A stretch of DNA of 64,000 bases, taken from assembly GCA_964426675.1 (NCBI GenBank), contig CAYRRM010000002.1, forward strand, positions 1-64,000, written 5' to 3'. Below, piece after piece: positions 1-49,944 of this stretch. The notes under the pieces were generated by a model. It did no database searches. It worked only from the letters and a program-made list of their open reading frames with translations, and was not told where the DNA came from. A program made the position numbers and the translations under genes. Numbering within the stretch: the first letter of the stretch is position 1; each line of letters opens with the position of its first letter. This DNA comes from an uncultured Lentisphaera sp. (GTDB lineage Bacteria > Verrucomicrobiota > Lentisphaeria > Victivallales > GWF2-50-93).

Positions 1-26
1 TTTTAAATTCCCCCCAGAATACCAAT

Positions 27-116: not shown

Positions 117-133
117 ATATGCAGGGATTATTA

Positions 134-220: not shown

Positions 221-371
221 AATAAAAAACCCATTAATATAATTCACAGATTATAAATTAAAAGCAATGGAAATCTGAAAAATTTTCATTATTTTTTTTT
301 TTGAACTGTAAAAATAAATAATTCAATGTAAAATATAAAAAAATCAATTAAGAAAATCCTGGAGGCATGTA

Positions 372-1628: not shown

Positions 1629-1649
1629 TTTTTCTGTGCCTCATTTTTT

Positions 1650-4438: not shown

Positions 4439-4540
4439 AAATTATCATTTTTCTTTCTTTGATATTTTTTTATTGGAAATAAAATATTTTTCTGATATAT
4501 TCCCTATCTCTAATGAAGTGAAAAATGGAGAAAACGCACA

Positions 4541-5737: not shown

Positions 5738-5787
5738 GGAATCTTTATATCAGCAAATTATAAAGCTCCTTTTCTACAAGAATTTTA

Positions 5788-6807: not shown

Positions 6808-8344
6808 ATTAAACTGCATATTTGAAGTAGGTTTTCATAGTGAAAGAGAATATCAAAATCCCCCTTTCGAAAATGAATTAATAGCAGAGTTTTACTCTCC
6901 ATCAGGTAAAATTCTAAAAATCAGAGGCTTCTGGGATGGAAAAAGAAAATGGAAATTACGTTTTTCCCCAGATGAAATTGGACAATGGGAGTGGAAAACT
7001 TTTCCAGTTAACCTCGACAATGGACTTATAAAATCAGGTTCTTTTATATGTAATCAATATACAGGGAAAAATCCTGTTTATAAAAATGGTTCTTTAAAAA
7101 TTTCTAAAAATGGTTTTTATATTTCATACCAAAGTGAAGAGCCATTTTTTTGGCTTGGAGATACTGCATGGAATGGCGTAATACGCGGGGATGACAATAA
7201 TTGGCAAAAATACCTAAGAATTAGAAGAAAGCAGAAATTCAATGTAATACAATTTGTTGCTTGTCATTGGCGTGGCGATAGTGAAGATGAATTTGGAGAA
7301 AAGGCCTGTGATGATGAAGTATCTCCAATAAAGATAAACCCACGATTTTTTCAAAGAATTGATAAACGCATTTTCATGATAAATAAGTCTGGATTATATG
7401 CAGCGCCAGTAATATTATGGACACTCCTTGAAACCGATATTGGTCAAAAGTTATCTGAAGAAGATGCTATATTGTTGGCAAAATATATAGTTGCGAGATA
7501 TGATGCATGTCAATGCGTCTGGTTGCTTGGGGGGGATGGAGATTATCAAAAAATAGGTATTGAAAGATGGAAACGAATAGGAAGAGAAGTTTTTAAATTT
7601 TCCCATAAACGCCTTGCTACACTTCATCCATGTGGTCAAAACTGGGTTGGAGAAGAATTTCGTTCTGAAGATTGGTATAGTTTTATTGGTTATCAATCCG
7701 GGCATGGAGATAGTGATGAACATATTTCCTGGTTAGTGAAAGGTCCTCCTTCTCTAATGTGGAAGCATCAAATTCAGAAACCCGTAATTAATTTGGAACC
7801 AAACTATGAGAATGCCATTGCTTATCATCATCGCACACGTTTTAATGCTTACCATGTAAGACGCGCAGCATATTGGAGTTTATTCGTAAGCCCTCCTGCA
7901 GGAATTACCTATGGGCATGATTCTATATGGAATTGGAATTTTGAAACAGGACCAAGTGAAGGACATGGAAACTGGGGGGATAGATTAATAGAACCGTGGT
8001 ACATAGGACTTGAGACTGAAGGAATTTCTTCTATGACTTTAATGAAAAAAATAATAGAAAAGTTCAAATGGCATACCTTTAAACCTTTTAATGCGATATT
8101 AATGGAACAACCTGGCGATACAGATCCTAAAAAATTTATTGCTATTGTAAAATCTGAAGACAACATCGTTTTAGCTTATCTTCCCTGTGGAGGTGAACTT
8201 AAATTAAAGCCTGATATTAAAGTAACTGAAGTTTATTTAATAAACCCTGAAAACGGAAAAAAAACTAAAGTAAAGCAGGGAAATAATAACTTAATAAAAA
8301 CTTATCAAGAAAAAGATTGTCTCGTCACATTTAAAATGGCATAA
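6791..8344 (+). CDS. DUF5060/DUF4038-type putative glycoside hydrolase (GH140-like)
   Basis: The 517-aa product has an N-terminal Ig-like module followed by a TIM-barrel-like region. The family assignment is from memory of this architecture. Confidence 0.45.
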   Translation: MKKEVKLNCIFEVGFHSEREYQNPPFENELIAEFYSPSGKILKIRGFWDGKRKWKLRFSPDEIGQWEWKTFPVNLDNGLIKSGSFICNQYTGKNPVYKNGSLKISKNGFYISYQSEEPFFWLGDTAWNGVIRGDDNNWQKYLRIRRKQKFNVIQFVACHWRGDSEDEFGEKACDDEVSPIKINPRFFQRIDKRIFMINKSGLYAAPVILWTLLETDIGQKLSEEDAILLAKYIVARYDACQCVWLLGGDGDYQKIGIERWKRIGREVFKFSHKRLATLHPCGQNWVGEEFRSEDWYSFIGYQSGHGDSDEHISWLVKGPPSLMWKHQIQKPVINLEPNYENAIAYHHRTRFNAYHVRRAAYWSLFVSPPAGITYGHDSIWNWNFETGPSEGHGNWGDRLIEPWYIGLETEGISSMTLMKKIIEKFKWHTFKPFNAILMEQPGDTDPKKFIAIVKSEDNIVLAYLPCGGELKLKPDIKVTEVYLINPENGKKTKVKQGNNNLIKTYQEKDCLVTFKMA

Positions 8345-9116
8345 TATTTTTTGCTTTAAATTTATCCCTTACTCCATCGAATATTTTACTTTTTACAATA
8401 CCAATTTTGTCTAATCTATAGCAAAGACCTGTCCATAAACATCCTAAACCATATTTTATACTCCGACTAAAATTTATTGAAGATGCTTCTGGAAAATATT
8501 TTGTAGGACAACTTATTTCAGCAATTTTATAACCAAGATATAATATTTGGCAAAGCATTTGATTGTCAAAAACAAAATCGTCTGAATTATATGTGAAATC
8601 TATTTTTTGCAGTAATTCCCTTGAAAAAGCTCTATAGCCTGTGTGATATTCAGATAATTTTGCTCCTGTAAATATGTTTTCTACAAACGTTAAAAAACGA
8701 TTAGAAATATATTTGTAAAGAGGCATACCGCCTTGAATTGCATAACCGCCTAACATTCTTGAACCTAAAACGCAATGATAAAGCTCATTTCCAATTATTG
8801 AGACCATAGCTGGAATTAATTTAGGTGTATACTGATAATCAGGATGCACCATAATTATTATATCAGCACCAGCCTCAAGAGCCGCTTTATAGCATGTTTT
8901 TTGATTGGCTCCATATCCCTTGTTTTTGTCATGAGTTATGACTTTTATGCCTCTCAGTTTTTTTGCTAATTCAACTGTTTTATCACTACTTGCATCATCC
9001 ACAAGAATAATATAATCCACATAATCTTGCTGAACGATTTCATTGTAAGTGGCTTTAAGAGTTTTTTCCGCATTATAAGCAGGCAGGACAATAAGAACTT
9101 TTTTATTTTTATACAT
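8331..9116 (-). CDS. GT2 polyprenol-phosphate glycosyltransferase (DPM1/ArnC-like)
   Basis: VLIVLPAYNAEKTL...ILVDDASSDKT...DxD region is present and the size is 261 aa. Confidence 0.8.
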   Translation of the reverse strand: MYKNKKVLIVLPAYNAEKTLKATYNEIVQQDYVDYIILVDDASSDKTVELAKKLRGIKVITHDKNKGYGANQKTCYKAALEAGADIIIMVHPDYQYTPKLIPAMVSIIGNELYHCVLGSRMLGGYAIQGGMPLYKYISNRFLTFVENIFTGAKLSEYHTGYRAFSRELLQKIDFTYNSDDFVFDNQMLCQILYLGYKIAEISCPTKYFPEASSINFSRSIKYGLGCLWTGLCYRLDKIGIVKSKIFDGVRDKFKAKNIMPF

Positions 9117-9168
9117 TTTATCTATTTATTAATAGTCTTATTTTTGCAGGATTTTATATGTGGTAAAT

Positions 9169-9253
9169 TGGTGGTGGGGGGTGGATTCGAACCACCGAAG
9201 GCATCGCCGGCAGATTTACAGTCTGCTCCATTTGACCGCTCTGGAACCCCACC
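9169..9253 (-). tRNA. tRNA-Tyr (anticodon GTA), 85 nt
   Basis: The reverse complement reads GGTGGGGTTCCAGAGCGGTCAAATGGAGCAGACTGTAAATCTGC...GGTTCGAATCCACCCCCCACCA. Confidence 0.88.
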
Positions 9254-9261
9254 GTATAAAC

Positions 9262-9335
9262 TGGAGCGGGTGAAGGGAATCGAACCCTCACAATCAGCTT
9301 GGAAGGCTGATGTTCTACCATTGAACTACACCCGC
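9262..9335 (-). tRNA. tRNA-Gly (anticodon TCC), 74 nt
   Basis: The reverse complement reads GCGGGTGTAGTTCAATGGTAGAACATCAGCCTTCCAAGCTGATTGTGAGGGTTCGATTCCCTTCACCCGCTCCA. Confidence 0.9.
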
Positions 9336-9461
9336 ATTTTTTCTGAGGTTGTAATTTACATTATTTCAGTGCGTATTCAAACTCTTTTTTTAAAAATATT
9401 TCTTTTACAAAAAGCTTGACTAATTCTTTTTATCTGCTAAATTCAATTTATAAAATAATTT

Positions 9462-10049
9462 GTGTGTGCTAATATGCAATCATTTTTTAATCTTCTTAGT
9501 GGTGACCTCAAATATTATTGGATGCTTGCACTATCAGGAACGGTAATTTTTGTATTTCAGATAATCCTCCTTCTGATTTTTGGCGTAGGTTCTGATACAG
9601 ATGTAGATGCGGATCTAAATGGTATTGATGGAGATATGCATCCAGACACAGATATCGGTGATTTTCGCATAATATCCTTTAGAACCATTGTAGCATTTAT
9701 AACCTTCTTTGGCTGGGGGGGAATTATCTATGGTAAAGGAGGTTGGGGCTCTTTTATTGTTGCTCTAACCTGCGGTATATCTATGATGTTTATAACTGCT
9801 ATACTTATCTTTTATGTGTTAAAGCTTCAGCAAAGCGGAAATATTTACGCAAACGACATAATCGGAAAAACCGGAACGGTTTACCTTAAAATTCCAGCAG
9901 GGAAAAATGAGCATGGAAAAGTGACTGTCTTTACCGGGGCTGGAACACGAGAAGTCCTCGCTATATCAGAAGAGGAAATCCCCAATGGTGCTACAGTAAA
10001 AATAATATCACAAATAGGTCAAAATAAATTTTTAGTTGAAAAAATCTAA
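9462..10049 (+). CDS. NfeD-family membrane protein (YqiJ-like)
   Basis: TM helices are followed by a C-terminal OB-fold-like tail (TGTVYLKIP...KVTVFTGAGTREV). The gene lies immediately upstream of the flotillin gene. Confidence 0.65.
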   Translation: MCANMQSFFNLLSGDLKYYWMLALSGTVIFVFQIILLLIFGVGSDTDVDADLNGIDGDMHPDTDIGDFRIISFRTIVAFITFFGWGGIIYGKGGWGSFIVALTCGISMMFITAILIFYVLKLQQSGNIYANDIIGKTGTVYLKIPAGKNEHGKVTVFTGAGTREVLAISEEEIPNGATVKIISQIGQNKFLVEKI

Positions 10050-10064
10050 ATCAGGAGATTTAAA

Positions 10065-11513
10065 ATGGGTTCTTATATTATTCTATTCTTGCTGGCTGTC
10101 TTCTTTATCTTTTTTACATTAATTATTTTACTGAGCAGATATAAGAAGTGTCCCTCAGATAGAATAATGGTAATATATGGAAAAACTAAGGAAAGACGTG
10201 CCGCCAGATGTATTCACGGAGGTGCAGCATTCATAATGCCGGTTATTCAAGACTACGGTTTTATGAGCCTCAGACCTATGCAAATAGAGGTAAATCTAAC
10301 CAATGCTCTTTGTAAACAAAATATAAGAATCAATGTGCCATCAGTATTTACAGTCGGAATAAGTACTAACCCTGAATTAATGAATAATGCCGCCGAACGA
10401 TTATTTGGTTTGCACCCTGATACAATAGCAGATCTTGCAAAAGATATTATCTTTGGACAATTGCGTCTTGTAATTGCATCAATGACAATAGAAGAAATAA
10501 ATGCAGATAGAGATTCTTTCCTTAAAAATATAGAACAAAATGTTGCGGAAGAACTAAATAAACTCGGCTTACAATTGCTAAATGTAAATATCACAGATAT
10601 TACAGATGAAAGCGGATATATCACAGCAATAGGTAAAAAAGCAGCAGCAGAAGCCGTAAATGAAGCTCTCATTGATGTGGCAAATGCAGAGAAAAAAGGA
10701 CAAACTGGACAGGCCGTAGCTAAGAGAGACCAGAGAGTTCTAGTATCAAAAGCCAATGCTGAAGCAGCGGCAGGAGAAGCGTCTGCAGATAGAGACCGCA
10801 GAATTGCCATAAAACAAGCAGAAGCAGAAGCAATAAATGGAGAAAATTTATCTGCGATTGAAATTGCAAAATCAAATGCTATTAGGGCTGAGCAAGAAGC
10901 AGAAGCGTTTAGAAAAGCAGAAGCAGCAAAGCGTATAGCGCAAGCCCAAATAGAAAAAGCTGAATATGAGGCAGAACTCGAAGCTCAAAAATCTCGTGCA
11001 AAAATGGAAATGGAAAAACAAAATGCAGAGATAATTGTGCCATCTGAAATACAGAAAAAACAAATTGAAATAGCAGCAGAAGCAGAAGCAGAAAAGTATA
11101 GAAGAGAAGCAAAAGGAGAAGCAGATGCGATTTTCGCAAAATTAAGTGCTCAAGCTAAAGGGCAATTCGAAATACTTAAATCAAAAGGAGCAGGTTTCCA
11201 GGAAATTATCAAAGCGTGTAATGGCGATACAGATGCCGCTTCTAAGATGCTACTAATAGAAAAACTCGAAGAAATAGTGAAACTTCAAACCGAAGCAATA
11301 AAAAATATCAAGATAGATAAGGTTACTGTCTGGGATGGAGGGCAAAGGACTCCAGATGGCAAAACCTCTACGGCAAACTTTCTGAGTGGAATGATGCAAA
11401 GTCTTCCACCTCTTCACGACGTTGCAAGTATGGCCGGTATAGATTTGCCGGGTTATCTCGGAAAGGTAAAGGAATGCCCTGCTAACCAGAGTATTACAAA
11501 CGATAAAAAATAG
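10065..11513 (+). CDS. SPFH/band-7 flotillin-like protein (YqiK/FloA-like)
   Basis: An N-terminal TM segment and SPFH domain are followed by a long Ala/Glu-rich coiled coil. An AGGAG RBS is present. This is the classical NfeD partner. Confidence 0.8.
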   Translation: MGSYIILFLLAVFFIFFTLIILLSRYKKCPSDRIMVIYGKTKERRAARCIHGGAAFIMPVIQDYGFMSLRPMQIEVNLTNALCKQNIRINVPSVFTVGISTNPELMNNAAERLFGLHPDTIADLAKDIIFGQLRLVIASMTIEEINADRDSFLKNIEQNVAEELNKLGLQLLNVNITDITDESGYITAIGKKAAAEAVNEALIDVANAEKKGQTGQAVAKRDQRVLVSKANAEAAAGEASADRDRRIAIKQAEAEAINGENLSAIEIAKSNAIRAEQEAEAFRKAEAAKRIAQAQIEKAEYEAELEAQKSRAKMEMEKQNAEIIVPSEIQKKQIEIAAEAEAEKYRREAKGEADAIFAKLSAQAKGQFEILKSKGAGFQEIIKACNGDTDAASKMLLIEKLEEIVKLQTEAIKNIKIDKVTVWDGGQRTPDGKTSTANFLSGMMQSLPPLHDVASMAGIDLPGYLGKVKECPANQSITNDKK

Positions 11514-11538
11514 TTCGGGAATTTATTTCTTAATTCCT

Positions 11539-12165
11539 ATGTTTTCCAAAAAACTCTACCTTAGCCTGGAATTAATTGTATTATTTTTTCTTTTACCAGT
11601 ACTTTATCTTTTTTCTCCTATAAAGATTCATATATTATTGATACTCTCTGCAATAACAGTATTGTGTCTTATTATTCACTATTTTTCAGGAAATGAACTT
11701 TCCTTTAAAGTTCTACCTATCCCATCCAACTTAATAGAAATGTTTTTAACTTTTTTTATTATATCGATTCTATTGGGGATATTCGTTTATATTTATTTCC
11801 CTGAGAATTTTTTTTCATTCCCATTAAAAAACACTAAAATATGGATACTCGTGATGTTTTTTTATCCAATTTTATCAGTGTTACCGCAGGAGTTCATATA
11901 TAGAGTATTTTTTATCTCCAGATACCGCGAAATCTTAGGAGGAGAACGCTCTATGAGTCTTGTTAATGCTCTTGCTTTCGCTTTCCTTCACATTGTATTT
12001 AAAAATAGCCTCGCAGTAATCTTAACTTTCATAGCTTCCTTTATCTTTTATAGAAATTATCAAAGAAACCACTCACTGTTCTGGGTAAGCTTTGAACACT
12101 ACCTTTATGGAGCAATGATTTTTTCTATTGGATTAGGACGTTTTTTTTACAACGGTGTACATTAG
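11539..12165 (+). CDS. CPBP-family intramembrane metalloprotease (CAAX protease-like)
   Basis: The EFIYR (ExxxR) and FAFLH (FxxxH) motifs lie within TM helices. Confidence 0.7.
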   Translation: MFSKKLYLSLELIVLFFLLPVLYLFSPIKIHILLILSAITVLCLIIHYFSGNELSFKVLPIPSNLIEMFLTFFIISILLGIFVYIYFPENFFSFPLKNTKIWILVMFFYPILSVLPQEFIYRVFFISRYREILGGERSMSLVNALAFAFLHIVFKNSLAVILTFIASFIFYRNYQRNHSLFWVSFEHYLYGAMIFSIGLGRFFYNGVH

Positions 12166-12440
12166 CCTAAATCTTTCATAAAAAGTTTTAAAATAAACCG
12201 TAAAATCTATCATAACCTGTTATTTGGTAGTTTGTTACAAAAATACAAAAAACATGAGATTTACCAATGACACAGTGGAACACTTTAAAAGACAATTTTC
12301 AATCTAATTTTTTCCTGCTATTAAAAAGGGGGAAAGTTAAACTGTAGATTTTCTTCCACGTTGGTCTCATTTTGGCTCAGAATAGTTCCAAAAAGGAGCT
12401 GTCATCTCAAAGCCAACAATGGGAGAGACAATCTGTCAAA

Positions 12441-12535
12441 ATCATCAACCTAAAAAATTGACGAAGCATAATCTATAACAACTTTATTTTCATATACATA
12501 AAAATAAAAACAATTTTCAACAGCTTTTATTAGGA
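12441..12535. repeat. R1 repeat, degenerate copy 1 (hyperconserved core AGCATAATCTATAACAAC...TTTTCATATACATAAAAATAAAAACAATTTTCAA)
   Basis: The core is near-identical to those at 15145-15200 and 47051-47108. The upstream part of the element is diverged or deleted. Confidence 0.8.
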
Positions 12536-12919
12536 GCAATTTACAAGCATCTTAACAGCATAAATTCAAAAATCACATCGAGAAAATAACAAAAGTTAAC
12601 AGAGCCTGCCTTATGAAATAAGCAGATTAATGTTATTTTAAGATTTTCCTGCATTTCGTGTTTCAGTTAATTAAGAGATAAAAATGTCGGGAAAGATACG
12701 AATGGAATACAAATTATTTTATCATAGATATCAAATAATTCGAAGGGTTTGACTATCACAAAGGTTTGCGAGAACTTCAATATTTGAATATTGGAATAAA
12801 AATTTCAAATTGCATAAAATTACCAGAAAACAGCACAAAAAGAAGAGAAAAATTGTTTTTTTACATATAATATTTATAAAGTTAATTAAAAAAGTAAACA
12901 TTAAAGAAGGAGATGAAAA

Positions 12920-14299
12920 ATGAAATTCAAAGAAATGAAAATTAAAAGTTCTGATGGTTTAATATTTGGAAAGGCTCCAAATCCAGTAAAAACACGAAGA
13001 GGACTCTTAATTGGAGGTGGATTAGTGTATCCTGAATTAAATTTTACAGTTCCAGAATCTACTTTAATCAATAGAGATACATTGCCAGAACTTATTGATA
13101 TGTATTCAAATCTCGTAAAAAATGTTCTTGAAAGAGCTGTAGAACTTGAATCAAATGGTCTTGTCCTCGAATTTGAAACCTTGCTGGAAATGACAAATGA
13201 CCCATTTATTGGAACTGAAATTGTAAAGGCCATGAATAATATATGTGAAGAGTTTTATATAAAATATGGCTTAAAAACTGAAATACGTCTAACTCCTAAT
13301 GATAGTCGTGATATGGAAAGACCTCCCAAAATGAGAAATGGCAAATATCTTGATGCGATGTTTGAACTATTTGAGAAAGGCTCCGATGCTGGGGCTGATT
13401 TATTATCAATAGAGTCAACTGGCGGAAAGGAAATTCATGATGATGCGTTGATGAATTGCGATATAAGACTTTCCCTATTTTCCCTGGCTATTCTCGGCGT
13501 AAGAGATATGAAATTTTTATGGAATAATATTGTGAAAATTGCAAAAAGAAAGGGGAAAATTGCTGCATCAGATACTGCATGCGGTTTTGCAAATACAGCA
13601 ATGGTTCTGGCAGATAAAAATTATATTCCTAAAGTTTTTTCTGCTGCAGTGAGAATGATAAGTGTAGTAAGGAGTCTTGTAGCCATTGAAGAAGGAGCTC
13701 AAGGACCACATAAGGATTGCGGTTATGAAGGAGTCTATATAAAGGCAATATCCGGTATTCCTATATCTATGGAGGGAAAAAGTGCGGCATGCGCTCACCT
13801 CAGCCCGGTTGGGAACATATCCTGTGCAGCGGCAGATTTATGGAGTAATGAATCTGTTCAGAACATAAAACTCCTCGCAGGAATGGCTCCTACTGTATTT
13901 GAGGAAATTCTCGAATATGATACACGCATTTTAAACACAGCTTCCGCATGTGACGAGAAAAGTGCCAGGCAACTTCAAAAATTACTTATAGAATCAGATT
14001 GTCATCGTGATCCTCAGGCCTTCGTCTTATCCCCTGAATTTGTTTTAGAAGTTGCAAGTGAAATCTTAAAATATGATAATCACTATATGGCAGCTCTAAA
14101 AAGTTCTCTTAAAGGTCTTCAGATTTGTAAGGAAGCTATTAAATCTGGTTTTCTAAAAAGTTCAGAAAGAGAAAAAGACTGGCTGGAAAGGATTATAGAC
14201 GAATTATCAAGTTGTCCAGAAGATGAAAGCAAATTTATAGATGAAGTTTTACCTCTTGTTGATACTGAAAAGTGCGATTTAAAACAGTATGAACTCTGA
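12920..14299 (+). CDS. MtaB-family protein (methanol:corrinoid methyltransferase subunit B-like, TIM-barrel zinc enzyme)
   Basis: GADLLSIESTGGKEIHDDALMNCDI and DCGYEGVYIKAISGIPISMEGKSAACAHLS resemble remembered MtaB zinc-site regions. A strong AAGGAG RBS is present. No mtaC or mtaA lies adjacent. Confidence 0.5.
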   Translation: MKFKEMKIKSSDGLIFGKAPNPVKTRRGLLIGGGLVYPELNFTVPESTLINRDTLPELIDMYSNLVKNVLERAVELESNGLVLEFETLLEMTNDPFIGTEIVKAMNNICEEFYIKYGLKTEIRLTPNDSRDMERPPKMRNGKYLDAMFELFEKGSDAGADLLSIESTGGKEIHDDALMNCDIRLSLFSLAILGVRDMKFLWNNIVKIAKRKGKIAASDTACGFANTAMVLADKNYIPKVFSAAVRMISVVRSLVAIEEGAQGPHKDCGYEGVYIKAISGIPISMEGKSAACAHLSPVGNISCAAADLWSNESVQNIKLLAGMAPTVFEEILEYDTRILNTASACDEKSARQLQKLLIESDCHRDPQAFVLSPEFVLEVASEILKYDNHYMAALKSSLKGLQICKEAIKSGFLKSSEREKDWLERIIDELSSCPEDESKFIDEVLPLVDTEKCDLKQYEL

Positions 14300-14536
14300 A
14301 CAACATCATATTTTTTAAATACAGTTTGTTAAAATATATTCTGATTTTTCAAAAATTTTTTTGCGCGGTTTTTGATTTCTTAATTTTTCGCAAAAATTTT
14401 ATTTCCTAAGACACAACACATTACGGATTGATATTATACTTATTAAAATTTATAACACTTGAAAAAAAAGTATTATGATTTATATTTTGTGGAAAATTAT
14501 TCTTCTATGCGGAAAATATAATTATCTGTTAAATTA

Positions 14537-14692
14537 ATGAATAATATCAAGGAGAAATCAGATTTGACAAGAAATGAGGAAATAGAATTTTGTGACGGGT
14601 GTGGAAAACAGTTAACACCCGGAACTCCAAGATATCGGACAGATGAAGGAACTTTCTGTCCAGAATGTTATAAAAAAAGAATTTCAACGTGA
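14537..14692 (+). CDS. small zinc-ribbon protein (CxxC-x17-CxxC), absent from the ORF track
   Basis: The 51-codon ORF encodes ...EFCDGCGKQLTPGTPRYRTDEGTFCPECYKK. An AAGGAG at 14549-14554 sits 9 nt before an in-frame TTG at 14564, which is an alternative start. Confidence 0.4.
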   Translation: MNNIKEKSDLTRNEEIEFCDGCGKQLTPGTPRYRTDEGTFCPECYKKRIST

Positions 14693-14987
14693 TGGTAAAA
14701 TTTCTATTTCTGAGATAAAAATTTGGAAGAGCCTTAACGGCATTTATTTACTCATTTAGGGTAAATAAAATGGATTAGGTTTAGAAGCTTAATAATCAAG
14801 TACTAATAACTTTGCCAAGCCTTGAGTTTAAGAAGTAAAAATATACGTGATTTTGGATATTTTCAGTATTCTCATACAAACCGTATGTTGGTATATTTAT
14901 ATATCATTATAGTGTCAGGGAGATAATATTCCATCTTGATAATTTCTCCAGTTTAAATTATTTAAAAACTTTTTGGTTAAGTTCATC

Positions 14988-15215
14988 CTCTAAATTAAGC
15001 AGTTGGGCGCATCTGCCGTAGATAGTAGGTAGCAAAACGAGCTGTAGCAACTACTAGTGGAAGCTAACGAAGTAGATACGATAAATACGGACAGCCATTC
15101 GCGGGTTGAAAATCGTAAAAAATCGTCAACCTAAAAGGTTGACGAAGCATAATCTATAACAACCTTATTTTCATATACATAAAAATAAAAACAATTTTCA
15201 ACTGATTTTTTTAGG
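14988..15215. repeat. R1 repeat, full copy 2 (about 225 bp), contains the perfect hairpin CGTCAACC-TAAAA-GGTTGACG at 15124-15144
   Basis: It aligns along its whole length with 46893-47120 and with the partial copy at 12441-12535. Confidence 0.85.
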
Positions 15216-15299
15216 TTCATTAGTGTAGTATATACAACGTTCTAAATAGAGCTTTTACATAATTCTTTATATAATAAATCAGTATTTTCAGAGAGGAGA

Positions 15300-16133
15300 T
15301 TACTTTATTTTTTGATACACTCTAATATAATCAATGATAAATTGTTGTGGTAAGATATTGTCATCTATTTTGCCACCCCAAGTACCGCCGATTGCGAAGT
15401 TCATAAGGATATAAAAAGGTTCTCTGAATGGATTATAATTTTCTTCATCTGCTTCTGAAACATTGAATGAGAAATATTTATTTTCATCAAAGAAAAAGTT
15501 AATTTCTTCTGAATTCCATTCAATGGCATAAATATGGAAATCATCAAAAGGTTTTTCTGTGTAAAATTTTCCTCCTTTAGACTTATGCTTACCGTTTATT
15601 GCAAAATGTACTGTTCCATGAATTGTCCCTGGTTCTTTACCAACAAATTCCATAATGTCTATTTCTCCACATGTTGGCCATCCTTTTGTATCGTGGGAAT
15701 CTCCCAACATCCATATAGCTGGCCAAACGCCTTGGCCATGTGGAAGTTTTGCTTTTACTTCAATGCGTCCGTATTTAACGCTGAACTTATTTTTTGTAAT
15801 AATGCTTGCTGCGGTATAATCTGCATATTCCAATTTTGTTTTCCAGGAGTTTGATCCTAGTTTAAACATGTGATTTTTAAATTTTTCTTTTCTGCATTCG
15901 ATAATCAAGAGCCCATTTTCTACTCTGGCATTTTCCATTCTTTCCCGGGTATAATATTGTTTTTCTTCATTTCTTACAAAGCCATATTCATAGTTCCATT
16001 TTGTTGGGTCAGGTAAACCATTGTTATTGAATTCATCACACCATATGAGTTTCCATTCATCGGGATTATCTGCTTTGGTTATAGTTGGTAAAATTATTAT
16101 GGTGCTCATCAGGAGAAGAAGTTCTAAATTCAT
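15300..16133 (-). CDS. GH16 family beta-glucanase (laminarinase-like), secreted
   Basis: A signal peptide is present, together with the catalytic EIDIMEF (ExDxxE) motif and the WPA(I)WML motif. Confidence 0.85.
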   Translation of the reverse strand: MNLELLLLMSTIIILPTITKADNPDEWKLIWCDEFNNNGLPDPTKWNYEYGFVRNEEKQYYTRERMENARVENGLLIIECRKEKFKNHMFKLGSNSWKTKLEYADYTAASIITKNKFSVKYGRIEVKAKLPHGQGVWPAIWMLGDSHDTKGWPTCGEIDIMEFVGKEPGTIHGTVHFAINGKHKSKGGKFYTEKPFDDFHIYAIEWNSEEINFFFDENKYFSFNVSEADEENYNPFREPFYILMNFAIGGTWGGKIDDNILPQQFIIDYIRVYQKIK

Positions 16134-16146
16134 TGCTCATACATCC

Positions 16147-16944
16147 TTAATTTTTCTTTAAAGAATCAAGATATTCTGATGGTGTCATAAATATAGAGCC
16201 TTTTTCAATTAGATAGTCGATAATTTTTTTGAAATTATTCCATTTTTCTTCAGTATTCCACATATTTGGATGACCTTGCATGCATATATATGGTTTTTTA
16301 GGGGCGAATTTTTCATATGCCTTTTTGAAATTGTCGAAGTCAGGAAGACCCGGTTTCAATTCTAAATTTACATTTCTTTCGAAGATAAATTTACTTGTTT
16401 TTTTTGAAGGGGGGGAATAAAAAAAGACCATTTTAATTTCAGGGATTTGTTCAAGTGCAAGGAAAGTCTCTTCGCTTGTTCCTGACCAATGCGGCCCAAA
16501 AGCTTTTAAAATTATTCCTGTTTTTTCTTTCATAAGATTTTGTGTTTTTTCAAGAGCTTGTTTTTGTTCTTCCAATGATGTTTTTTCAAATTCTGCGCTA
16601 TCATTTTGTCCTTTACGATTCTTGTACCCATGATTCCAGAGTTCAAAACCTTTTTTATCTAGATCTTTTAGATAATCGAAGTATTTTTGATTATTTTCTT
16701 CTAAAGTAAAACCAATTACTCCTATAGAAGCTTTCAATTTTTTGGCAAGTATATAATCTACTACCTTTTGCCAGCGTGGTGAAACTGGCAGTGAGCCATC
16801 TGAAGGAGCTCCCGATGTACCCATATCGTCTAATTTAAGAATGACTATTGGGACATTTTGTTTTGCAGTGTCCTGAGCATTAAGTAAAATGCCTGAAAAT
16901 AATGCAGCAGCTAACAACTGAGTTCCAAGTAATGAGATTTTCAT
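16147..16944 (-). CDS. secreted carbohydrate deacetylase-like protein (putative)
   Basis: A signal peptide follows M16 (MKISLLGTQLLAAALF), and an AGGAG RBS lies 9 nt upstream of that ATG. The LKLDDMG motif resembles YdjC/polysaccharide-deacetylase DD(F/M)G motifs. Confidence 0.35.
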   Translation of the reverse strand: MKISLLGTQLLAAALFSGILLNAQDTAKQNVPIVILKLDDMGTSGAPSDGSLPVSPRWQKVVDYILAKKLKASIGVIGFTLEENNQKYFDYLKDLDKKGFELWNHGYKNRKGQNDSAEFEKTSLEEQKQALEKTQNLMKEKTGIILKAFGPHWSGTSEETFLALEQIPEIKMVFFYSPPSKKTSKFIFERNVNLELKPGLPDFDNFKKAYEKFAPKKPYICMQGHPNMWNTEEKWNNFKKIIDYLIEKGSIFMTPSEYLDSLKKN

Positions 16945-16982
16945 TTTTTTTACTCCTTTTTTTAAGAAAATTAAAAATTTAA

Positions 16983-19900
16983 TTACCATCTGTAGTATCT
17001 ATATGGGTCATCTTCAGCAATTGGGTTTTGTAGATAGTAAGAGTTAATCCATGGAGCTGATTTTCTTTTTATCCTTGGTTGTTCTCTGAATCCTCCATTC
17101 ATATAAGTATCATTAACTTTTACAACGAGAGTGTTTTTTTCTTTTTTTCTTAGGATTTCTGTTTTGAATGTATAAGTTCTTGGAGCATTCCAATAGTTTT
17201 TTGGATTTGTAGTTTTTGTGAGCTCTCCGAGAAATTGTTCATTGAGCCACGTCCATGATTCATCATCTATTCCACCCAATTCAAGGGTGAGTTCATCTTC
17301 ATTTTCAAATTCTTGTGGGAGAGTAAATTTCAATCTATACCAGAAAAAACCATCATATCCATTTAAATCTTTTCTTAGTAAGTCAAACATTCCAGGAACT
17401 AATATGGGTTCCCATGTAGAATCATCAAAGTTTTCTTTCATCCAACCTGCAGATTCTCCTATATTATCTTTATCAGGTACACCTTTCCAATCTTTAACTA
17501 ATCTTAAAATTGAAGATGAAGGAGTTCTTGCGAAATTCGCAAGTAATTGAGTTGTCATTGTTGCGTGAAGATTTGCCAATAGCCTTGAAATAAGGAAACA
17601 GTTCCTGCGATATGTTGTCCTTTGATATGGTTTTGTTGTATAATCAATATTCCATGGTGCTATTTGAACTAAAGCGACAGTACCATTACCTACTTTTAGG
17701 ATTTTAAGCATTTCTACTGAATCTCTGTCTTTTTCTGTAAAGGCATCAAAGCTGAATTTTCCTCTAAAATGCAATTCAGAGTTTGAGATTCCATTAAGTT
17801 CTTTTGCTGTCATATTCTCCATTGTGGATGAAAACCCTGTGAAGTGCTCCATTTTTAGCATATTTGGTAGAATATTTGATATTGTTTTTTCATCAAGTCC
17901 TATTGTGAGTAAGTTTGCTCCTTGATATACCAGATCTTTTAGCGATGAAGATTTGCTATTTGGGCCGATTACAACGAGAGAGTTAAGAGGTGTAATTTTT
18001 TCATTATTGAGCTTAGAAAACTTAACTCCAAGAGCCTCAAGAAGATTTGCACCTTCCTGATTTCCATCATAATAAACAGATCTTATTTTTTCAATATGGA
18101 CTTTATCGAGATATTTGACTATATTTTTTGTAATTTGGAGAGCAACCGGGTCATTTTCGGTTCTTCCTGAGACATCAAGCTGACAGAAAATAATTTTTTT
18201 ATTCCCTTCAGAATATTCAATAAGAGGAGAGTATTGTAAATCAAAGCCACAATCAACAATGGGCAACCAGTTACCTCGTTCTGGTTTTTCTATTACGATT
18301 GAAGCTACATTTCCACTATTCCCACAACGCCATACTCGAGTATTCAAAAAGCCACACCATTCCCATTGAGGATCGTGCTCTTCAAATTCCTCTAAATCAG
18401 TGAGATAAGGAGGAGTAAGCGTGGATTCTCCACGCCAATCCCTTAGCATGTCCTCATCTATGCCAGTCAGAACAGGATGATTTTTACTTCTAATAAAGAG
18501 ATTGCGAAAACCATAAATATTTATTCGGAAACCCAGTTTATTTGACAAAGAAATTTCATTTTGTTCAAATACAATCATTTTTAGTGGTTTATCACTCTTT
18601 GAAAAATCGTGATTAGCATCTTTTTCCTGAAGGGCATTTTTGCCGATTATGAGAATCCTATTTTCATCGGGTTCAAAGTCTGAGTATGAAACAATTTTTT
18701 TATAGTTTATAGAAGATTCATCAAATAGGCGTGTTGTATCACCTTTTGGATCAAATAGATATACTTCTGAATCAATATTAATATTTGCAAGATTGAGTTT
18801 AAGTATATTGAAAGAGAAAATATCACTACATTTCCATTTTTCTTCAAAGTTAAATTCTGCAATCATTTTCAGTGATTGTTTTTTTTCTGGAGCTTTGAAT
18901 TTGATAGGACAAAATTTGATTTCTCCTGGTTTTAGTTCAACTTCTCCTCTTCCTTCTATATTAGTTGACTCGATTTTCCAGGAATATTTACATTTAACAT
19001 TTTCTCTTGAGTCATTGATAATGACCAGTTGTTTGGCGATATTTTCTCCCGGGAGAAAGTTATGAGACTTATCTGTGAACTTTGGATATCCACCTACAAA
19101 ACCAAGGTATTCCATATTATTTTTAAGGAATATTTTCCCAAGTGAAGATGGGATGAAATTACTTTCATCTCCTGGATCATTTATAAACTGAGCCCCTGAA
19201 TGAAAAAAGTCAGGTACAATACCTGGCTTTTGCAGTGTTTTGTATTTTAAGGGGTTATCTTTATCTGGAGTTTCTTTTACTCTTTGCCATAGAGAAGCTT
19301 GATCCCATGGAAGTATTGAAGAAACCCCCCAGGCTCTATGTGAACGCCAGTTGTCGGAAGCATAGTATGAGGTAATTTCCCTATAATTTTCTTCCATTGA
19401 TGAAAGAGTTGGCACAAAAATGCTCCAATGGAAAGGCTTCCCTATCGCAAAATTTTTTTCTTCCGCTTCAATAAGTTCAATTTTTTTAGGAGTCATATTA
19501 TAGGCTTTTTCTCCTGTTATTGCTGCTGAAAATTCGCTATCCCAAACACTTTGATATGCCAGGCATCTCCAGATGAATTCAGGTCCTCGATAACTTGACC
19601 ATGAAGCGATATGAGGGAGCCCCCATTCTACAAAGAAAAAGGGTTTTACTCCATTTTTGCTCCAATGTTCTAACCACTCAGAACGTTCCTGTCGTGGGGC
19701 CCAGTTAAGATAACAATTTACAGTGTATATATCTCCAAGATTTCCACACTGATGATGGTAAACAGGTCTGGTTGGATCAATTTTTTTTGCTATAGAAGCA
19801 GCTTTTTCAGATTTTTCTCTTCTTTCTATATAAGAACCTTTTTTACCTTTTTCAATTTCACTTTTTAGTCTCTCTGGCATATATGTTCCATCTAATTTTA

Positions 19901-46477: not shown

Positions 46478-46892
46478 AAACTTATATCCTCATTTTTTTA
46501 CTTCTTACATCAATACAAAATTACCGAGCACTTCACCTAAATTTTCAAATTCTATTATCTAATAGATTATAAATACCTAAATATAAAGATATTATAGATA
46601 TCCAATGGTTTATTTTTTCTTCAAATTTTTGGCTAAATTCCCACAAGGTTCCAGCCAGGCCATTGTGTGAAGCACTGATTACGGAGAAAGATCTTCTATA
46701 CCAGCGTCCTTTCTCCATTCTCATACTGACTAAAAGCAAAATATAGGTTAAAAAAAATTAAACACAAGAACAAATGCATTTAAGGAAAAATAAATCATAT
46801 GTTTGAATTTTCTACTTCTGAAAAAAAACTTTATTAAAACCTTTGTCTGTTTACCCAAATTTTGCACCTCAATCAGCCAGCAAGAGTTTTTC

Positions 46893-47120
46893 CTAAATTA
46901 AGCAGTTGGACGCATTTGCCGTAGATACCAGGTAGCGAGACAACGCTGTAGTAACTAAAATCGAAATTAAAGAAGTAGATACGATAAATGCGGACAAGCC
47001 CGCGCGAGTTAAAAAATTGTAAAAAAATCGTCAACCTAAAAGTTTGATGGAGCATAATCTATAAAAACCCTATTTTCATATACATAAAAATAAAAACAAT
47101 TTTCAATTGCTTTTTTAGGA
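46893..47120. repeat. R1 repeat, full copy 3
   Basis: It aligns along its full length with 14988-15215. The core 47051-47108 is near-identical. Confidence 0.85.
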
Positions 47121-47377
47121 TAATAAATGTGGTGTGAACTGCATTGCTGTTCACGAAATTATCCTTTTGTGCTATGCTGATAGAACTTGCAAGGAATCGC
47201 CTTGATTCCTCGCAACTATGCCATACTGGCAAAACGCAAGATATAGGCTAATTTCATAAATTTTTTGAATTTAAGAATAAGTTTTTATTGAGAGTAAGGT
47301 ACATTTTTTAATATTGATTAATCGCGTTTACGAGAGGATAGAAATGCCATCAAATATGACCACGTGAAAACGGTAAA

Positions 47378-49204
47378 TTAAGGAAAGATCATAGCCTCTG
47401 AAAAAATCATCTGAAATTCTGGGTCCAGAGATATCTCAATATAATTAGTTTTTTCTGCAAGCTCCTCAGCTTTTCTTCTTCTTTCTCCAGAAAGCAGAGC
47501 TTCTTTTGCTCCTTCTGAAGAAGTATTGCCAACATATCTTATTTTATAATCTGGAATATTTGGAAGTAAACCAATACGCACAGCATTATTTCTACGAATG
47601 AAATTTCCAAAACCACCTGCTACTAATACTGTATCAAGCTCTTCTGGAGTTATTCCAATTTTTTGTAACAAGATATTTATAGTTGCCCTTATAGCTCCTG
47701 TAGCAAGTTGAATTTCCCTGATATCTCTTTGAGAGATAAAAATCTTTTTTTTGTTATCTGCCTGGAGAAGAAAATCCCATGTCTGGCCATCATCTCGAGA
47801 TATGAGCCTATCTTTTAAAATTTTTGGTAGAGATGATAATTCATCAGGTGATAAAATTCTACCTGAAGACTCAAGAATGCCAATTTTCAGTAACTCTGCA
47901 GTTGAATCTATAACAGCACTTCCGCAAATTCCTAAAGGCGCTGTATTGCCTATGACATTTAAATGAACTCCTTCTCTGTTAATAATAACTTTTTCTATTG
48001 CTCCTTTTGAAGCTCTCATTCCGTATTCAATCCTTGCTCCTTCAAATGCTGGGCCTGCTGCAGCAGAAGCAGCAAATAAATTCCCTCCATTAGCTAAGAC
48101 AATTTCTCCATTTGTTCCTATATCAATGAAAAGTGTGGGTTTTTCCCTTTCATCAAGTCTGCAAGCACTTATTCCTGCGGTTATATCCCCACCAACAAAT
48201 CCCCCTATCAGGGGGAATATATATACTGGTGCTTCTGGATTTATATCAATACCCAAATCATTGGCTTCGAATAAAAGAGGTTTTTTAAATGGTGGGACAA
48301 ATGGAATCTCTCCTAAGTTTTTCGCTGTTATACCGCAAAAGAAACATTCCATTACTGTGTTTCCTGCTACCGCTGCAGAGTAGATATTTTTTTGTTTAAT
48401 ACCATTATCCTGACAAAGTTGTCGAATCAAATTATTAACAGCCTGAATAACAAGACTCTGAAGCTGTTCAAGATTTTCAGCAGACTTTTTTTCTGCCATT
48501 ATTCTTGAAATAAGATCATCTCCAAATTTTGTTTGTGGGTTTAATGATCCTTTACTATCAATAGTTTTTCCTTTTACAATATCTATCAAGGAAACAACTA
48601 TCGTTGTTGTCCCAATATCAACAGCAACTGCAAAATTAATGGATTCTGTATTTCCCTTATCCAGACAAATAATTTTATTATCACTTAGTACCGCTGTCCC
48701 TTTGAAGGAATTTTCTCTTAAAAACATCGGAATAGTTCTTAGCGTCTCTAAAGATATATCCTGAACAGAAAGATCCTCACGAAGTGCCTCAAAATCTGCT
48801 TTTTGATTTTCGAGAGAAGGTGGAATAAGAGAAAAAAATTTCTTTCGCACAAGTGGGGAATTTTCTAATAAAAATGGCTTATCGTCCTGGGTTAAAATAA
48901 GCAATTCATTTTCAAAAATAGTTTCAGACGGTACATCAATTTCGAGATTATCTTTTATTTTTAGTCTGCACGCAAGTCTCCAACCATTTTCAAGTTCTTC
49001 TTGAGAAAAAAACTTTTTGCACTGTTCATCTGGAGTAGATTCACCAGATATTACTCTTATTTTGCATTTTCCACATATACCCTGTCCTGCGCAAGGATTT
49101 TTTATCAAAATGCCAGCTCTCATTATACATTCGAGCAAAGAGGAGTCCTCCAAAGCATAAATTTCCTTTTTATAGTGGGGAAAATAAATCCTATAGTTCT
49201 TCAT
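47378..49204 (-). CDS. RACo-like ATP-dependent corrinoid reductive activase (2Fe-2S ferredoxin domain plus ASKHA/DUF4445)
   Basis: The N-terminal plant-type ferredoxin motif is CAGQGICGKCK, followed by the ASKHA phosphate-1 motif VDIGTTT. Confidence 0.65.
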   Translation of the reverse strand: MKNYRIYFPHYKKEIYALEDSSLLECIMRAGILIKNPCAGQGICGKCKIRVISGESTPDEQCKKFFSQEELENGWRLACRLKIKDNLEIDVPSETIFENELLILTQDDKPFLLENSPLVRKKFFSLIPPSLENQKADFEALREDLSVQDISLETLRTIPMFLRENSFKGTAVLSDNKIICLDKGNTESINFAVAVDIGTTTIVVSLIDIVKGKTIDSKGSLNPQTKFGDDLISRIMAEKKSAENLEQLQSLVIQAVNNLIRQLCQDNGIKQKNIYSAAVAGNTVMECFFCGITAKNLGEIPFVPPFKKPLLFEANDLGIDINPEAPVYIFPLIGGFVGGDITAGISACRLDEREKPTLFIDIGTNGEIVLANGGNLFAASAAAGPAFEGARIEYGMRASKGAIEKVIINREGVHLNVIGNTAPLGICGSAVIDSTAELLKIGILESSGRILSPDELSSLPKILKDRLISRDDGQTWDFLLQADNKKKIFISQRDIREIQLATGAIRATINILLQKIGITPEELDTVLVAGGFGNFIRRNNAVRIGLLPNIPDYKIRYVGNTSSEGAKEALLSGERRRKAEELAEKTNYIEISLDPEFQMIFSEAMIFP

Positions 49205-49272: not shown

Positions 49273-49944
49273 ATGAAGTTTTTGGATTTTCACAGCCATT
49301 TCAGGAATTTTTCTGCAAAAGAGACTGCAATTGTATCAATTTTTCCAAATGAATGCTCATGGGAAAATCGTAATGATGTCTACTTTTCCTGCGGAATACA
49401 TCCTAATTTCATACCAGAAGATTGCAATGTTTTAAGTCAATACATTCATATTTTAAAAAAACGAATGGAGACAAAAAAATTTTTAGCCATAGGGGAATGT
49501 GGACTGGATAGAACTTCTAAGTCCTCTATTGAAAGACAGATAAAGATATTAAATTTGCAGATAGAAATAGCTTGCGAATTTCGCAAACCAATAATTATAC
49601 ATTGTGTAAGAGCTTACGGCGAGATGTTGTCATTAAAAAAACAGTATAATAAATTAAGACTTCCCTTTGTAATTCATGGTTTCAGAGGATCAATAAAACT
49701 CGCAGAACAATTAACTGAAGCTGGTTTTATATTATCTTTTGGATATAAAATTTTAAAAGATCAAAATAAAATGAATGTTATTTCTGAATTAAAGGATAAA
49801 ATTTTTTTTCTTGAAAGTGATGAAGAAAAATATGGAGTAATCCCACTGTACCACGAAATAGCTAGATATTTAAAATGGGACGTAGAGGAACTAAAAGAAA
49901 AAATTAATATTTGGGCAAAAAGCTTATTCAATATCGATTTTTAG
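49273..49944 (+). CDS. tatD: TatD-family metal-dependent hydrolase/DNase
   Basis: A TIM-barrel amidohydrolase pattern is present (DFHSH, ECGLD, HCVRA). Confidence 0.7.
   Translation: MKFLDFHSHFRNFSAKETAIVSIFPNECSWENRNDVYFSCGIHPNFIPEDCNVLSQYIHILKKRMETKKFLAIGECGLDRTSKSSIERQIKILNLQIEIACEFRKPIIIHCVRAYGEMLSLKKQYNKLRLPFVIHGFRGSIKLAEQLTEAGFILSFGYKILKDQNKMNVISELKDKIFFLESDEEKYGVIPLYHEIARYLKWDVEELKEKINIWAKSLFNIDF

What the first reader, a model, noticed from the sequence alone, without database searches (positions are those of the whole stretch)
12920..14692. Orphan MtaB-family (methanol:corrinoid methyltransferase-like) gene with a downstream mini zinc-ribbon ORF, and no MtaC/MtaA partners
The 459-aa product carries sequence blocks that I recognise as MtaB-like (GADLLS.ES.GGKE, DCGYE...K.AI.G.P..MEGK...CAH). 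MtaB is normally encoded with its corrinoid protein MtaC and with MtaA, but here it stands alone in a 2.5-kb segment bounded by R1 repeats. It is followed by an unannotated 51-codon CxxC...CxxC zinc-ribbon ORF with a strong AAGGAG SD. Elsewhere in the window are a RACo-type corrinoid reductive activase and a B12-binding radical-SAM gene, so the organism appears to use corrinoid-dependent chemistry. MtaB homologues outside methylotrophic methanogens and acetogens are functionally uncharacterised.
Basis: partly seen in the sequence, partly recalled or inferred. Interest (0 to 1): 0.55.

Follow-up and report, generated by a model that had tools for sequence, protein, structure and literature searches.

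The report
Solitary bacterial methanol methyltransferase (MtaB) gene
This is an intact, conserved gene for the zinc enzyme that takes the methyl group off methanol and puts it on vitamin B12, in a sugar-fermenting Victivallales bacterium. It looks "orphan" only because its usual partner genes are scattered in this genome, so it is an ordinary, though experimentally unstudied, member of a known enzyme system.

Summary
ORF 12920-14299 is a full-length MtaB-family protein: Pfam PF12176 at 532 bits, TM-score 0.93 to M. barkeri MtaB, and the Glu/Cys/Cys zinc site conserved. The 64-kb window contains no MtaC or MtaA gene.

"Orphan" describes gene order, not function. The protein belongs to a large bacterial clade found in at least 591 species genomes. 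Its usual operon is AraC | corrinoid protein - URO-D methyltransferase - MtaB - COG0523 - RACo. In a 78%-identical relative, MtaB lies next to the ortholog of the window's RACo-TatD pair. A 64% Lentisphaerae relative carries the whole operon. Solitary mtaB copies recur in several subclades and in Moorella.

The gene is native (typical GC) and under strong purifying selection (dN/dS 0.06).

The zinc-ribbon ORF is a real gene but occurs in only two species. Its orientation relative to mtaB differs between them, and closer mtaB relatives lack it. The AAGGAG motif lies inside the 51-codon ORF.

R1 is a dispersed intergenic repeat carrying a terminator, not a cassette boundary.

Verdict: a new member of a known kind, of modest interest. 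The bacterial clade as a whole has no characterisation in the papers searched.

The parts
12920..14299 (+). mtaB-family gene (459 aa): predicted zinc-dependent methanol:corrinoid methyltransferase (MT I)
   Evidence: Pfam PF12176 at 531.9 bits, full length. 2i2x_A at E 5e-84 and 37.5% identity. AF2 model pLDDT 89.3, TM 0.93 to 2i2x_A. E165/C221/C267 align with the Zn ligands and are invariant in 28 clade members. dN/dS 0.058 against the 90% ortholog.
12907..12912 (+). AAGGAG Shine-Dalgarno of mtaB, 7 nt before the ATG
   Evidence: Read directly from the sequence.
14537..14692 (+). Small CxxC...CxxC zinc-ribbon ORF (51 aa from the ATG, or 42 aa from the TTG at 14564 that is preceded by AAGGAG at 14549-14554)
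   Evidence: ORF. Only sub-threshold Pfam zinc-ribbon hits. Only two protein clusters in 5.8 billion, this species and a roughly 84%-nt relative. Core residues 18-51 show 13 synonymous against 5 non-synonymous codon differences. In L009 it is divergent from mtaB; it is absent from L092 and L093.
12427..12534 (+). R1a: truncated copy (3' 108 nt) of a dispersed intergenic repeat
   Evidence: the repeat finder family D1; alignment A2.
14990..15217 (+). R1b: full copy (about 230 nt) of the intergenic repeat, between the convergent zinc-ribbon ORF and the GH16 gene
   Evidence: No Rfam family.
15123..15145 (-). Intrinsic-terminator hairpin plus T-run inside R1b, placed to terminate the minus-strand GH2/DUF2334/GH16 operon
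   Evidence: Terminator scan: 10-bp stem, 5 GC pairs, TTTTTT tail; fold.
46892..47123 (+). R1c: third copy of the repeat, immediately downstream of the minus-strand RACo gene
47378..49204 (-). RACo-type reductive activase of corrinoid proteins (608 aa), the one partner gene of the system present in the window
   Evidence: Pfam Fer2, RACo_linker, Raco_middle and RACo_C_ter. 72% identical over its full length to the RACo that lies convergent to the mtaB ortholog in L092.
49273..49944 (+). TatD-family gene, a synteny marker paired with RACo both here and next to mtaB in L092
   Evidence: Pfam TatD_DNase; 55% identity to the L092 neighbour.

Best explanation
The gene encodes a functional methyltransferase I of the MtaB type. 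A Glu/Cys/Cys-bound zinc polarises the C-O bond of methanol, and the methyl group passes to Co(I) of a corrinoid. In this Victivallales genome the components of the usual system are scattered rather than in one operon. Those components are MT I (MtaB), a roughly 207-aa B12-binding corrinoid protein, a URO-D-type MT II, and a RACo reductive activase. MtaB is at 12.9 kb and RACo at 47.4 kb. The corrinoid protein and MT II are presumably elsewhere in the genome and may be shared with URO-D-type demethylases, as in Victivallis. The likely methanol source is de-esterification of pectin-like polysaccharides by this glycan-degrading fermenter, and the methyl group probably ends on tetrahydrofolate.

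Shown: family membership, fold, conserved metal site, purifying selection, native composition, and partner genes in relatives. Inferred: methanol as substrate, the identity and location of the corrinoid protein and MT II in this genome, and the fate of the methyl group.
For: Family and fold. Zinc ligands aligned and invariant.

The clade's operon partners were identified by Pfam as B12-binding_2+B12-binding, URO-D, cobW/COG0523, RACo and Met_synt_B12-like. Among 49 well-flanked loci the counts are MtaC 36, RACo 20, CobW 20 and URO-D 16.

L092 (78% ortholog): mtaB is convergent with RACo (72% to the window's RACo) and TatD. L094 (64% ortholog): AraC | CP - two URO-D-like genes - RACo - MtaB - Met_synt_B12-like.

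The corrinoid protein is 81-86% conserved across Victivallales, including V. vadensis, where it sits with two URO-D genes and RACo.

dN/dS is 0.058, and GC and GC3 match the neighbouring genes.

Literature: CoP and MT II can be shared between MT I enzymes, and Moorella has a solitary mtaB2 (PMC13391211). COG0523 clusters with mta genes (PMC2770081).
Against: No corrinoid protein or MT II was found for this organism. Only 64 kb of a contig of at least 343 kb could be read, and attempts to reach further failed.

The protein scores 409.6 bits against the NCBIfam MtaB equivalog, below the 720 cutoff, and is only 37.5% identical to the one structurally characterised MtaB. Substrate identity is therefore not secured.

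All close Victivallales relatives lack an adjacent MtaC, so a lineage-specific change of partner cannot be excluded.
Confidence: 0.65

Rival explanations
1. Same chemistry but a different methyl donor. The bacterial clade would demethylate another small O-, S- or ester-methyl compound, for example a methylated sugar or methanethiol, rather than free methanol.
For: Below the MtaB equivalog cutoff and on a long branch separated from M. barkeri MtaB. Neighbours in relatives often include sulfatases, glycoside hydrolases and AraC/GntR sugar-type regulators. Some loci are followed by PALP and Cys/Met PLP enzymes (L029, L032, L038, L086).
Against: The zinc ligands and the surrounding motifs are invariant and shared with M. 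barkeri MtaB. To my knowledge, no PF12176 member with a substrate other than methanol (or ethanol at trace level) is known. Acetogen MtaBs that do use methanol are also only about 56% identical to each other.
Confidence: 0.15
2. A truly stand-alone MtaB. The solitary Victivallales subclade would have no dedicated corrinoid protein. It would methylate free cobamide or dock on the B12 domain of another enzyme such as MetH or a class-B radical-SAM enzyme.
For: All eight members of the Victivallales subclade (seven Victivallales plus Holophagae L015) lack an adjacent MtaC. Ten of 49 well-flanked loci have no partner gene at all. From my own knowledge, M. barkeri MtaB methylates free cob(I)alamin in vitro (Sauer & Thauer 1997).
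Against: The RACo ortholog is adjacent in L092 and RACo is retained in the window, and RACo acts on protein-bound corrinoids. L094 has the full operon. The radical-SAM gene near mtaB in L009 is only a 30% paralog of the window's, so that link is not conserved.
Confidence: 0.1
3. MtaB and the zinc-ribbon mini-protein form a functional pair. The mini-protein would be a zinc donor, regulator or subunit, making this a new two-gene module, possibly mobilised between the R1 repeats.
For: The two genes are neighbours in both species that have the small ORF, despite an inversion of mtaB between them. The zinc-ribbon core is under purifying selection. 108-nt direct repeats flank the pair.
Against: The small ORF exists in only two protein clusters out of 5.8 billion. 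It is absent next to the 78% and 77% mtaB orthologs. It has its own conserved 5' region, and it also keeps its position relative to the GH16 operon. R1 has a fourth copy at an unrelated locus with no corrinoid genes and is absent from L009. The gene's composition is native.
Confidence: 0.05

Closest known systems
MtaB of Methanosarcina barkeri (PDB 2i2x, MtaBC complex)
   Same: Same Pfam family over the full length, same TIM-barrel fold (TM 0.93), and the same Glu/Cys/Cys zinc-site positions.
   Different: Only 37.5% identical. Fails the NCBIfam methanogen equivalog cutoff. No adjacent mtaC. The host has no methanogenesis, so the methyl acceptor downstream cannot be coenzyme M.
Bacterial methanol methyltransferase systems MtaABC of acetogens (Moorella thermoacetica, Acetobacterium woodii, Eubacterium callanderi) and of Desulfotomaculum kuznetsovii
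   Same: The logic is MT I + CoP + MT II + activating enzyme with methyl transfer to THF. Solitary mtaB copies and shared CoP/MT II are documented (PMC13391211; PMC5770442).
   Different: Those organisms feed the methyl group into the Wood-Ljungdahl pathway or sulfate respiration. The host here is a polysaccharide-fermenting Victivallales, and its genes are dispersed. I could not obtain the acetogen sequences to place them in the tree.
The uncharacterised bacterial MtaB clade of Bacteroidales, Ignavibacteria, Spirochaetes, Anaerolineales and Calditrichota (public annotations 'methanol--corrinoid methyltransferase' or 'MtaB domain-containing protein')
   Same: 57-64% identity and the same invariant residues. 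The window protein nests inside this clade.
   Different: Most members sit in an AraC | MtaC-(URO-D)-MtaB-COG0523-RACo operon. The Victivallales branch, including this gene, has lost that adjacency.
URO-D-type corrinoid O-demethylase-like operon of Victivallis vadensis (URO-D - CP - URO-D - RACo - DUF1638)
   Same: A Victivallales corrinoid protein plus activase system that could supply the missing CoP and MT II.
   Different: It contains no MtaB. Whether this window's species has the operon is unknown.

Membership tests
MtaB family (Pfam PF12176) | Full-length HMM match above the gathering threshold | tested here: met
   531.9 bits against a cutoff of 25; residues 2-457 on profile positions 3-459 of 460.
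MtaB family (Pfam PF12176) | TIM-barrel fold of MtaB, with a closer match to it than to any other barrel family | tested here: met
   AF2 model pLDDT 89.3, pTM 0.91. Foldseek hit to 2i2x_A at TM 0.93, E 1e-34; the next hit has TM 0.37.
MtaB family (Pfam PF12176) | Zinc site Glu164/Cys220/Cys269 (M. barkeri numbering, recalled from Hagemeier et al. 2006) | tested here: met
   These positions align to E165/C221/C267, which are invariant in 28 clade sequences. The 3D geometry of the model's site was not inspected.
NCBIfam NF040651 MtaB_Meth (equivalog of methanogen MtaB) | Score at or above the curated equivalog cutoff | tested here: not met
   409.6 bits against a cutoff of 720. The protein is therefore not filed as the methanogen equivalog.
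Three-component corrinoid methyltransferase system (MT I / CoP / MT II + activase) | Cognate corrinoid protein (B12-binding_2 + B12-binding) encoded with MT I | tested here: not met
   No hit in the 64-kb window to an MtaC HMM built from 45 clade neighbours. Present next to orthologs in L094 and in 32 of 49 related loci. The rest of this genome could not be searched.
Three-component corrinoid methyltransferase system (MT I / CoP / MT II + activase) | MT II (URO-D/MtaA-type) gene | tested here: not met
   No URO-D HMM hit in the window. The whole genome is not testable with these tools.
Three-component corrinoid methyltransferase system (MT I / CoP / MT II + activase) | Reductive activase (RACo/RamA type) | tested here: met
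   RACo at 47378-49204. Its 72% ortholog is adjacent to the mtaB ortholog in L092.
Three-component corrinoid methyltransferase system (MT I / CoP / MT II + activase) | Methanol-dependent methylation of Co(I) | not testable with these tools
   Requires an enzyme assay.
Zinc-ribbon mini-proteins (for ORF 14537-14692) | Two CxxC knuckles and a match to a curated zinc-ribbon model | tested here: inconclusive
   C19xxC22 and C41xxC44 are present. The best Pfam hits (LIM, DZR, Zn_ribbon_9) score about 19 bits, all below their cutoffs.

The most novel reading that the evidence does not exclude
The solitary-mtaB subclades (Victivallales, some Spirochaetes, Porphyromonadaceae, Mariniphaga) may have dispensed with a dedicated MtaC. 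They would use methanol to methylate a shared or free corrinoid that feeds biosynthesis, for example homocysteine to methionine. In Mariniphaga, mtaB is followed by PALP and Cys/Met-PLP genes. This would be an unrecognised methanol sink in non-acetogenic, polysaccharide-fermenting bacteria of guts and digesters. In this species the lineage-specific zinc-ribbon mini-protein could be an accessory factor.
Probability: 0.1. Interest if true: 0.65.

Novelty: new member of a known kind. Interest (0 to 1): 0.3.

Why it matters
On its own, this gene is a routine member of a known enzyme family whose partner genes have been dispersed by rearrangement.

The wider point is that a large bacterial MtaB clade exists in polysaccharide-degrading anaerobes that lack the Wood-Ljungdahl pathway. 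It spans at least 591 species genomes, mainly Bacteroidales, Victivallales, Ignavibacteria and Spirochaetes. I found no characterisation of it in the papers searched.

If these enzymes really consume methanol released from pectin, they compete with methylotrophic methanogens and acetogens for methanol in guts, sediments and digesters. That would affect methane budgets. This window does not test the idea; it only adds one more instance.

Tried and rejected
1. R1 as a riboswitch, known RNA or marker of a corrinoid regulon. Rfam gave no hit at gathering thresholds and only noise at E up to 5. The single metagenome scan found a fourth copy (L091) between unrelated convergent genes with no corrinoid genes nearby. 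Rejected.

2. An mtaB cassette inserted between R1 repeats, or recent horizontal transfer. L009 has mtaB and the small ORF at the same GH16-adjacent locus without R1, and GC and GC3 are native. Rejected.

3. A link between mtaB and the B12-binding radical-SAM gene. The L009 neighbour is only a 30% paralog of the window's gene. Rejected.

4. Pseudogene remnants of mtaC, mtaA or cobW in the long intergenic regions. None found.

5. The Kountz & Balskus 'mlp' clusters (PMC10418091). That paper concerns MtaA homologs and mentions MtaB only in passing, so it is not relevant here.

6. Finding this organism's corrinoid protein. Walking off the window ends failed: contigs break at the tRNA cluster, and my guessed start for the last ORF is not on record. 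Matching NCBI accession series also failed because the candidates carry no accessions.

7. Literature searches for this clade in Bacteroidota or Lentisphaerae found nothing specific.

8. I did not place the acetogen MtaB sequences in the tree, because I had no way to fetch them.

Full report
**1. What is in the sequence**

ORF 12920-14299 (+) encodes 459 aa and is preceded by AAGGAG at 12907-12912. It matches Pfam MtaB (PF12176) end to end at 531.9 bits, E 1.8e-159. The only PDB sequence hit is M. barkeri MtaB, 2i2x_A, at E 5e-84 and 37.5% identity.

An AlphaFold2 model built on a 28-sequence alignment has pLDDT 89.3 and pTM 0.91. Its best PDB match is 2i2x_A with TM 0.93. The next-best TIM barrels reach only TM 0.37.

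The M. barkeri zinc ligands Glu164/Cys220/Cys269 (numbering recalled from Hagemeier et al. 2006) align with E165/C221/C267. These residues are invariant across the clade alignment.

Against the NCBIfam methanogen equivalog MtaB_Meth, the protein scores 409.6 bits, below the 720 cutoff. It is an MtaB-family member but not the methanogen equivalog.

**2. Host and state of the gene**

Exact-sequence look-ups place the protein in several "Victivallales bacterium" MAGs. It is annotated there as "methyltransferase MtaB domain-containing protein" (HOK04495.1, HPO89652.1, HRR27784.1), with a longest contig of 343 kb. The DUF1559 and N-methyl proteins in the window fit a PVC-group host.

GC is 0.359 against a window mean of 0.347, and GC3 is 0.235, both matching neighbouring genes. 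Against the 90%-identical ortholog in L009, dN/dS is 0.058. The gene is native, intact and under strong purifying selection.

**3. Is it an orphan?**

Locally, yes. I built profile HMMs from the clade's neighbour genes and searched all stop-to-stop ORFs of 50 aa or more in the window. They find no MtaC-type corrinoid protein, no URO-D/MtaA and no COG0523. They find only RACo at 47378-49204. The long intergenic regions hold no pseudogene remnants of these partners.

Comparatively, no. At least 7,050 protein clusters match the query, and at least 591 species genomes encode a relative. The closest 80 genome loci (56-63% identity) come from Bacteroidales, Victivallales, Ignavibacteria, Spirochaetes, Anaerolineales, Calditrichota and other phyla.

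I clustered the neighbours of 81 loci (the genome-scan loci plus L007, L009 and L010) and annotated the cluster representatives with Pfam. This gives a recurrent operon:

- an AraC regulator, transcribed divergently;
- a corrinoid protein (B12-binding_2 + B12-binding);
- a URO-D methyltransferase, present in some loci;
- MtaB;
- cobW/COG0523;
- RACo;
- a Met_synt_B12-like protein, present in some loci.

Forty-nine genome-scan loci have at least 3 kb on both sides of mtaB. Among them:

| Feature | Loci (of 49) |
|---|---|
| MtaC within 3 kb | 32 |
| MtaC anywhere in the locus | 36 |
| At least one partner gene | 39 |
| No partner gene at all | 10 |

COG0523 clustering with mta genes is already known (PMC2770081).

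**4. The Victivallales branch**

In a neighbour-joining tree, the window protein groups with the other Victivallales sequences and one Holophagae sequence. None of them has an adjacent MtaC. Other solitary groups are Spirochaetes, a Porphyromonadaceae set and Mariniphaga. Two closer relatives are informative.

- **L092 (78% identical MtaB).** mtaB is convergent with a RACo gene that is 72% identical over its full length to the window's RACo. That RACo is followed by the TatD ortholog, the same RACo-TatD pair found at 47.4-49.9 kb in the window.
- **L094 (64% identical; Lentisphaerae GWF2_52_8).** This locus has AraC | corrinoid protein - two URO-D-like genes - RACo - MtaB - Met_synt_B12-like.

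The L094 corrinoid protein is 81-86% conserved across Victivallales, including cultured Victivallis vadensis. There it lies in a URO-D - CP - URO-D - RACo - DUF1638 operon without mtaB.

Published work states that CoP and MT II can be shared between MT I enzymes. It also reports that Moorella thermoacetica carries a solitary mtaB2 (PMC13391211).

The simplest reading is that this genome has a dispersed, not incomplete, methanol methyltransferase system. I could not verify the corrinoid protein and MT II for this species, because only the 64-kb window was accessible and attempts to go further failed.

**5. The zinc-ribbon ORF**

ORF 14537-14692 has C19xxC22 and C41xxC44. All Pfam zinc-ribbon hits are below their thresholds.

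The AAGGAG at 14549-14554 lies inside the ATG-started ORF and 9 nt before an in-frame TTG at 14564. NCBI MAG records use either start: 42 aa in HOK04496.1 and 51 aa in HRR06823.1. In L009 only the ATG is available as a conventional start, and about 57 nt upstream of it is conserved between the two species.

The protein has only two clusters in 5.8 billion sequences, this species and L009's. Residues 18-51 show 13 synonymous against 5 non-synonymous codon differences, so the ORF is a real coding gene.

In L009 it is divergent from mtaB, because the mtaB block is inverted relative to the window. It is absent beside the 78% and 77% mtaB orthologs. A functional link to MtaB is therefore weakly supported at best.

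**6. The R1 repeats**

There are three copies in the window:

- 12427-12534, a truncated copy;
- 14990-15217;
- 46892-47123.

A fourth copy lies in a contig from a sister sample and most likely the same organism (L091 9110-9343). It sits between unrelated convergent genes, with no corrinoid genes nearby. There is no Rfam match.

On the minus strand the element carries a canonical intrinsic terminator (15145-15123). It is positioned after the GH16 operon, and the R1c copy sits directly after RACo. R1 is absent from L009. It is a dispersed intergenic repeat, not evidence for a mobile mtaB cassette.

**7. Mechanism and rivals**

Best explanation (confidence about 0.65): a zinc-dependent methanol:corrinoid methyltransferase loads a corrinoid protein encoded elsewhere. 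RACo re-reduces that protein, and a URO-D-type MT II unloads it, probably to THF. The methanol would come from polysaccharide de-esterification.

Rivals:

- another methyl donor (0.15);
- a truly stand-alone enzyme acting on free or foreign corrinoids (0.10);
- an MtaB/zinc-ribbon module (0.05).

The B12-binding radical-SAM gene is not linked. The radical-SAM gene near mtaB in L009 is only a 30% paralog of the window's.

**8. Novelty**

Bacterial mtaB genes across many phyla have been noted in MAG surveys (PMC10805028). MtaB systems have also been studied in a sulfate reducer (PMC5770442). I found nothing specific on the Bacteroidota or Victivallales clade.

The finding is a correct identification of a new member of a known kind. 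The "orphan" aspect is explained by gene dispersal, and interest is modest.

Noticed in passing
window 12427-12534, 14990-15217, 46892-47123; L091 9110-9343: A repeat of about 230 nt occurs in intergenic DNA, with at least four copies in this organism. It has a 9-10 bp hairpin (TCGTCAACC-loop-GGTTGACGA) that forms an intrinsic terminator on the minus strand, plus a conserved AT-rich 75-nt arm. It matches no Rfam family. Whether it is a REP/MITE-like element or an sRNA gene is open.
   Followed up: partly
L029 and L032 (Mariniphaga), also L038, L086, L084: In some Bacteroidales, mtaB is directly followed by a PALP enzyme (cysteine synthase or cystathionine beta-synthase type) and a Cys/Met-metabolism PLP enzyme, with no MtaC nearby. 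This hints at a link between this MtaB clade and sulfur-amino-acid or methionine metabolism.
   Followed up: no
L095/L096 8971-13851 (Victivallis vadensis): An AraC | URO-D - corrinoid protein - URO-D - RACo - DUF1638 operon lies beside SASA esterase and CBM9 genes. It looks like an O-demethylase-type system in a glycan-degrading context. Its corrinoid protein is 81-86% conserved across Victivallales.
   Followed up: partly
L094 2060-4419: Two tandem 385/384-aa paralogs, 85% identical to each other, have no precomputed Pfam hit. They match my URO-D HMM only weakly (E about 1e-15-1e-16). They sit between the corrinoid protein and RACo and may be a divergent MT II/MT I family.
   Followed up: partly
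L010 (Calditrichaeota) 1-16654: In this large cluster, MtaB lies with a B12-binding protein, two URO-D genes, RACo, an MR_MLE enzyme, a zinc ADH, an FAD protein, an aminotransferase, GxGYxYP and a xylose-isomerase-like TIM barrel. This suggests a sugar-derivative pathway that includes a demethylation step.
   Followed up: no
window 12947-12982 vs 42126-42161: A 36-nt stretch with 83% reverse complementarity links the 5' coding region of mtaB and the 3' part of the B12-binding radical-SAM gene (repeat finder I2). By a rough estimate it is probably chance in AT-rich DNA.
   Followed up: no
window 1650-3323, 30767-33265, 44300-46477: Three large ORFs (557, 832 and 725 aa) have no Pfam family. The 725-aa ORF lies directly downstream of RACo, after the R1c terminator.
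   Followed up: no
window 15300-22310 vs L009 2-3488: The GH2 (1,775 aa) - DUF2334 - GH16 operon next to mtaB is syntenic in the related species. However, L009 has an extra GlcNAc-2-epimerase-like gene and an inverted mtaB, so there has been local rearrangement around this locus.
   Followed up: partly
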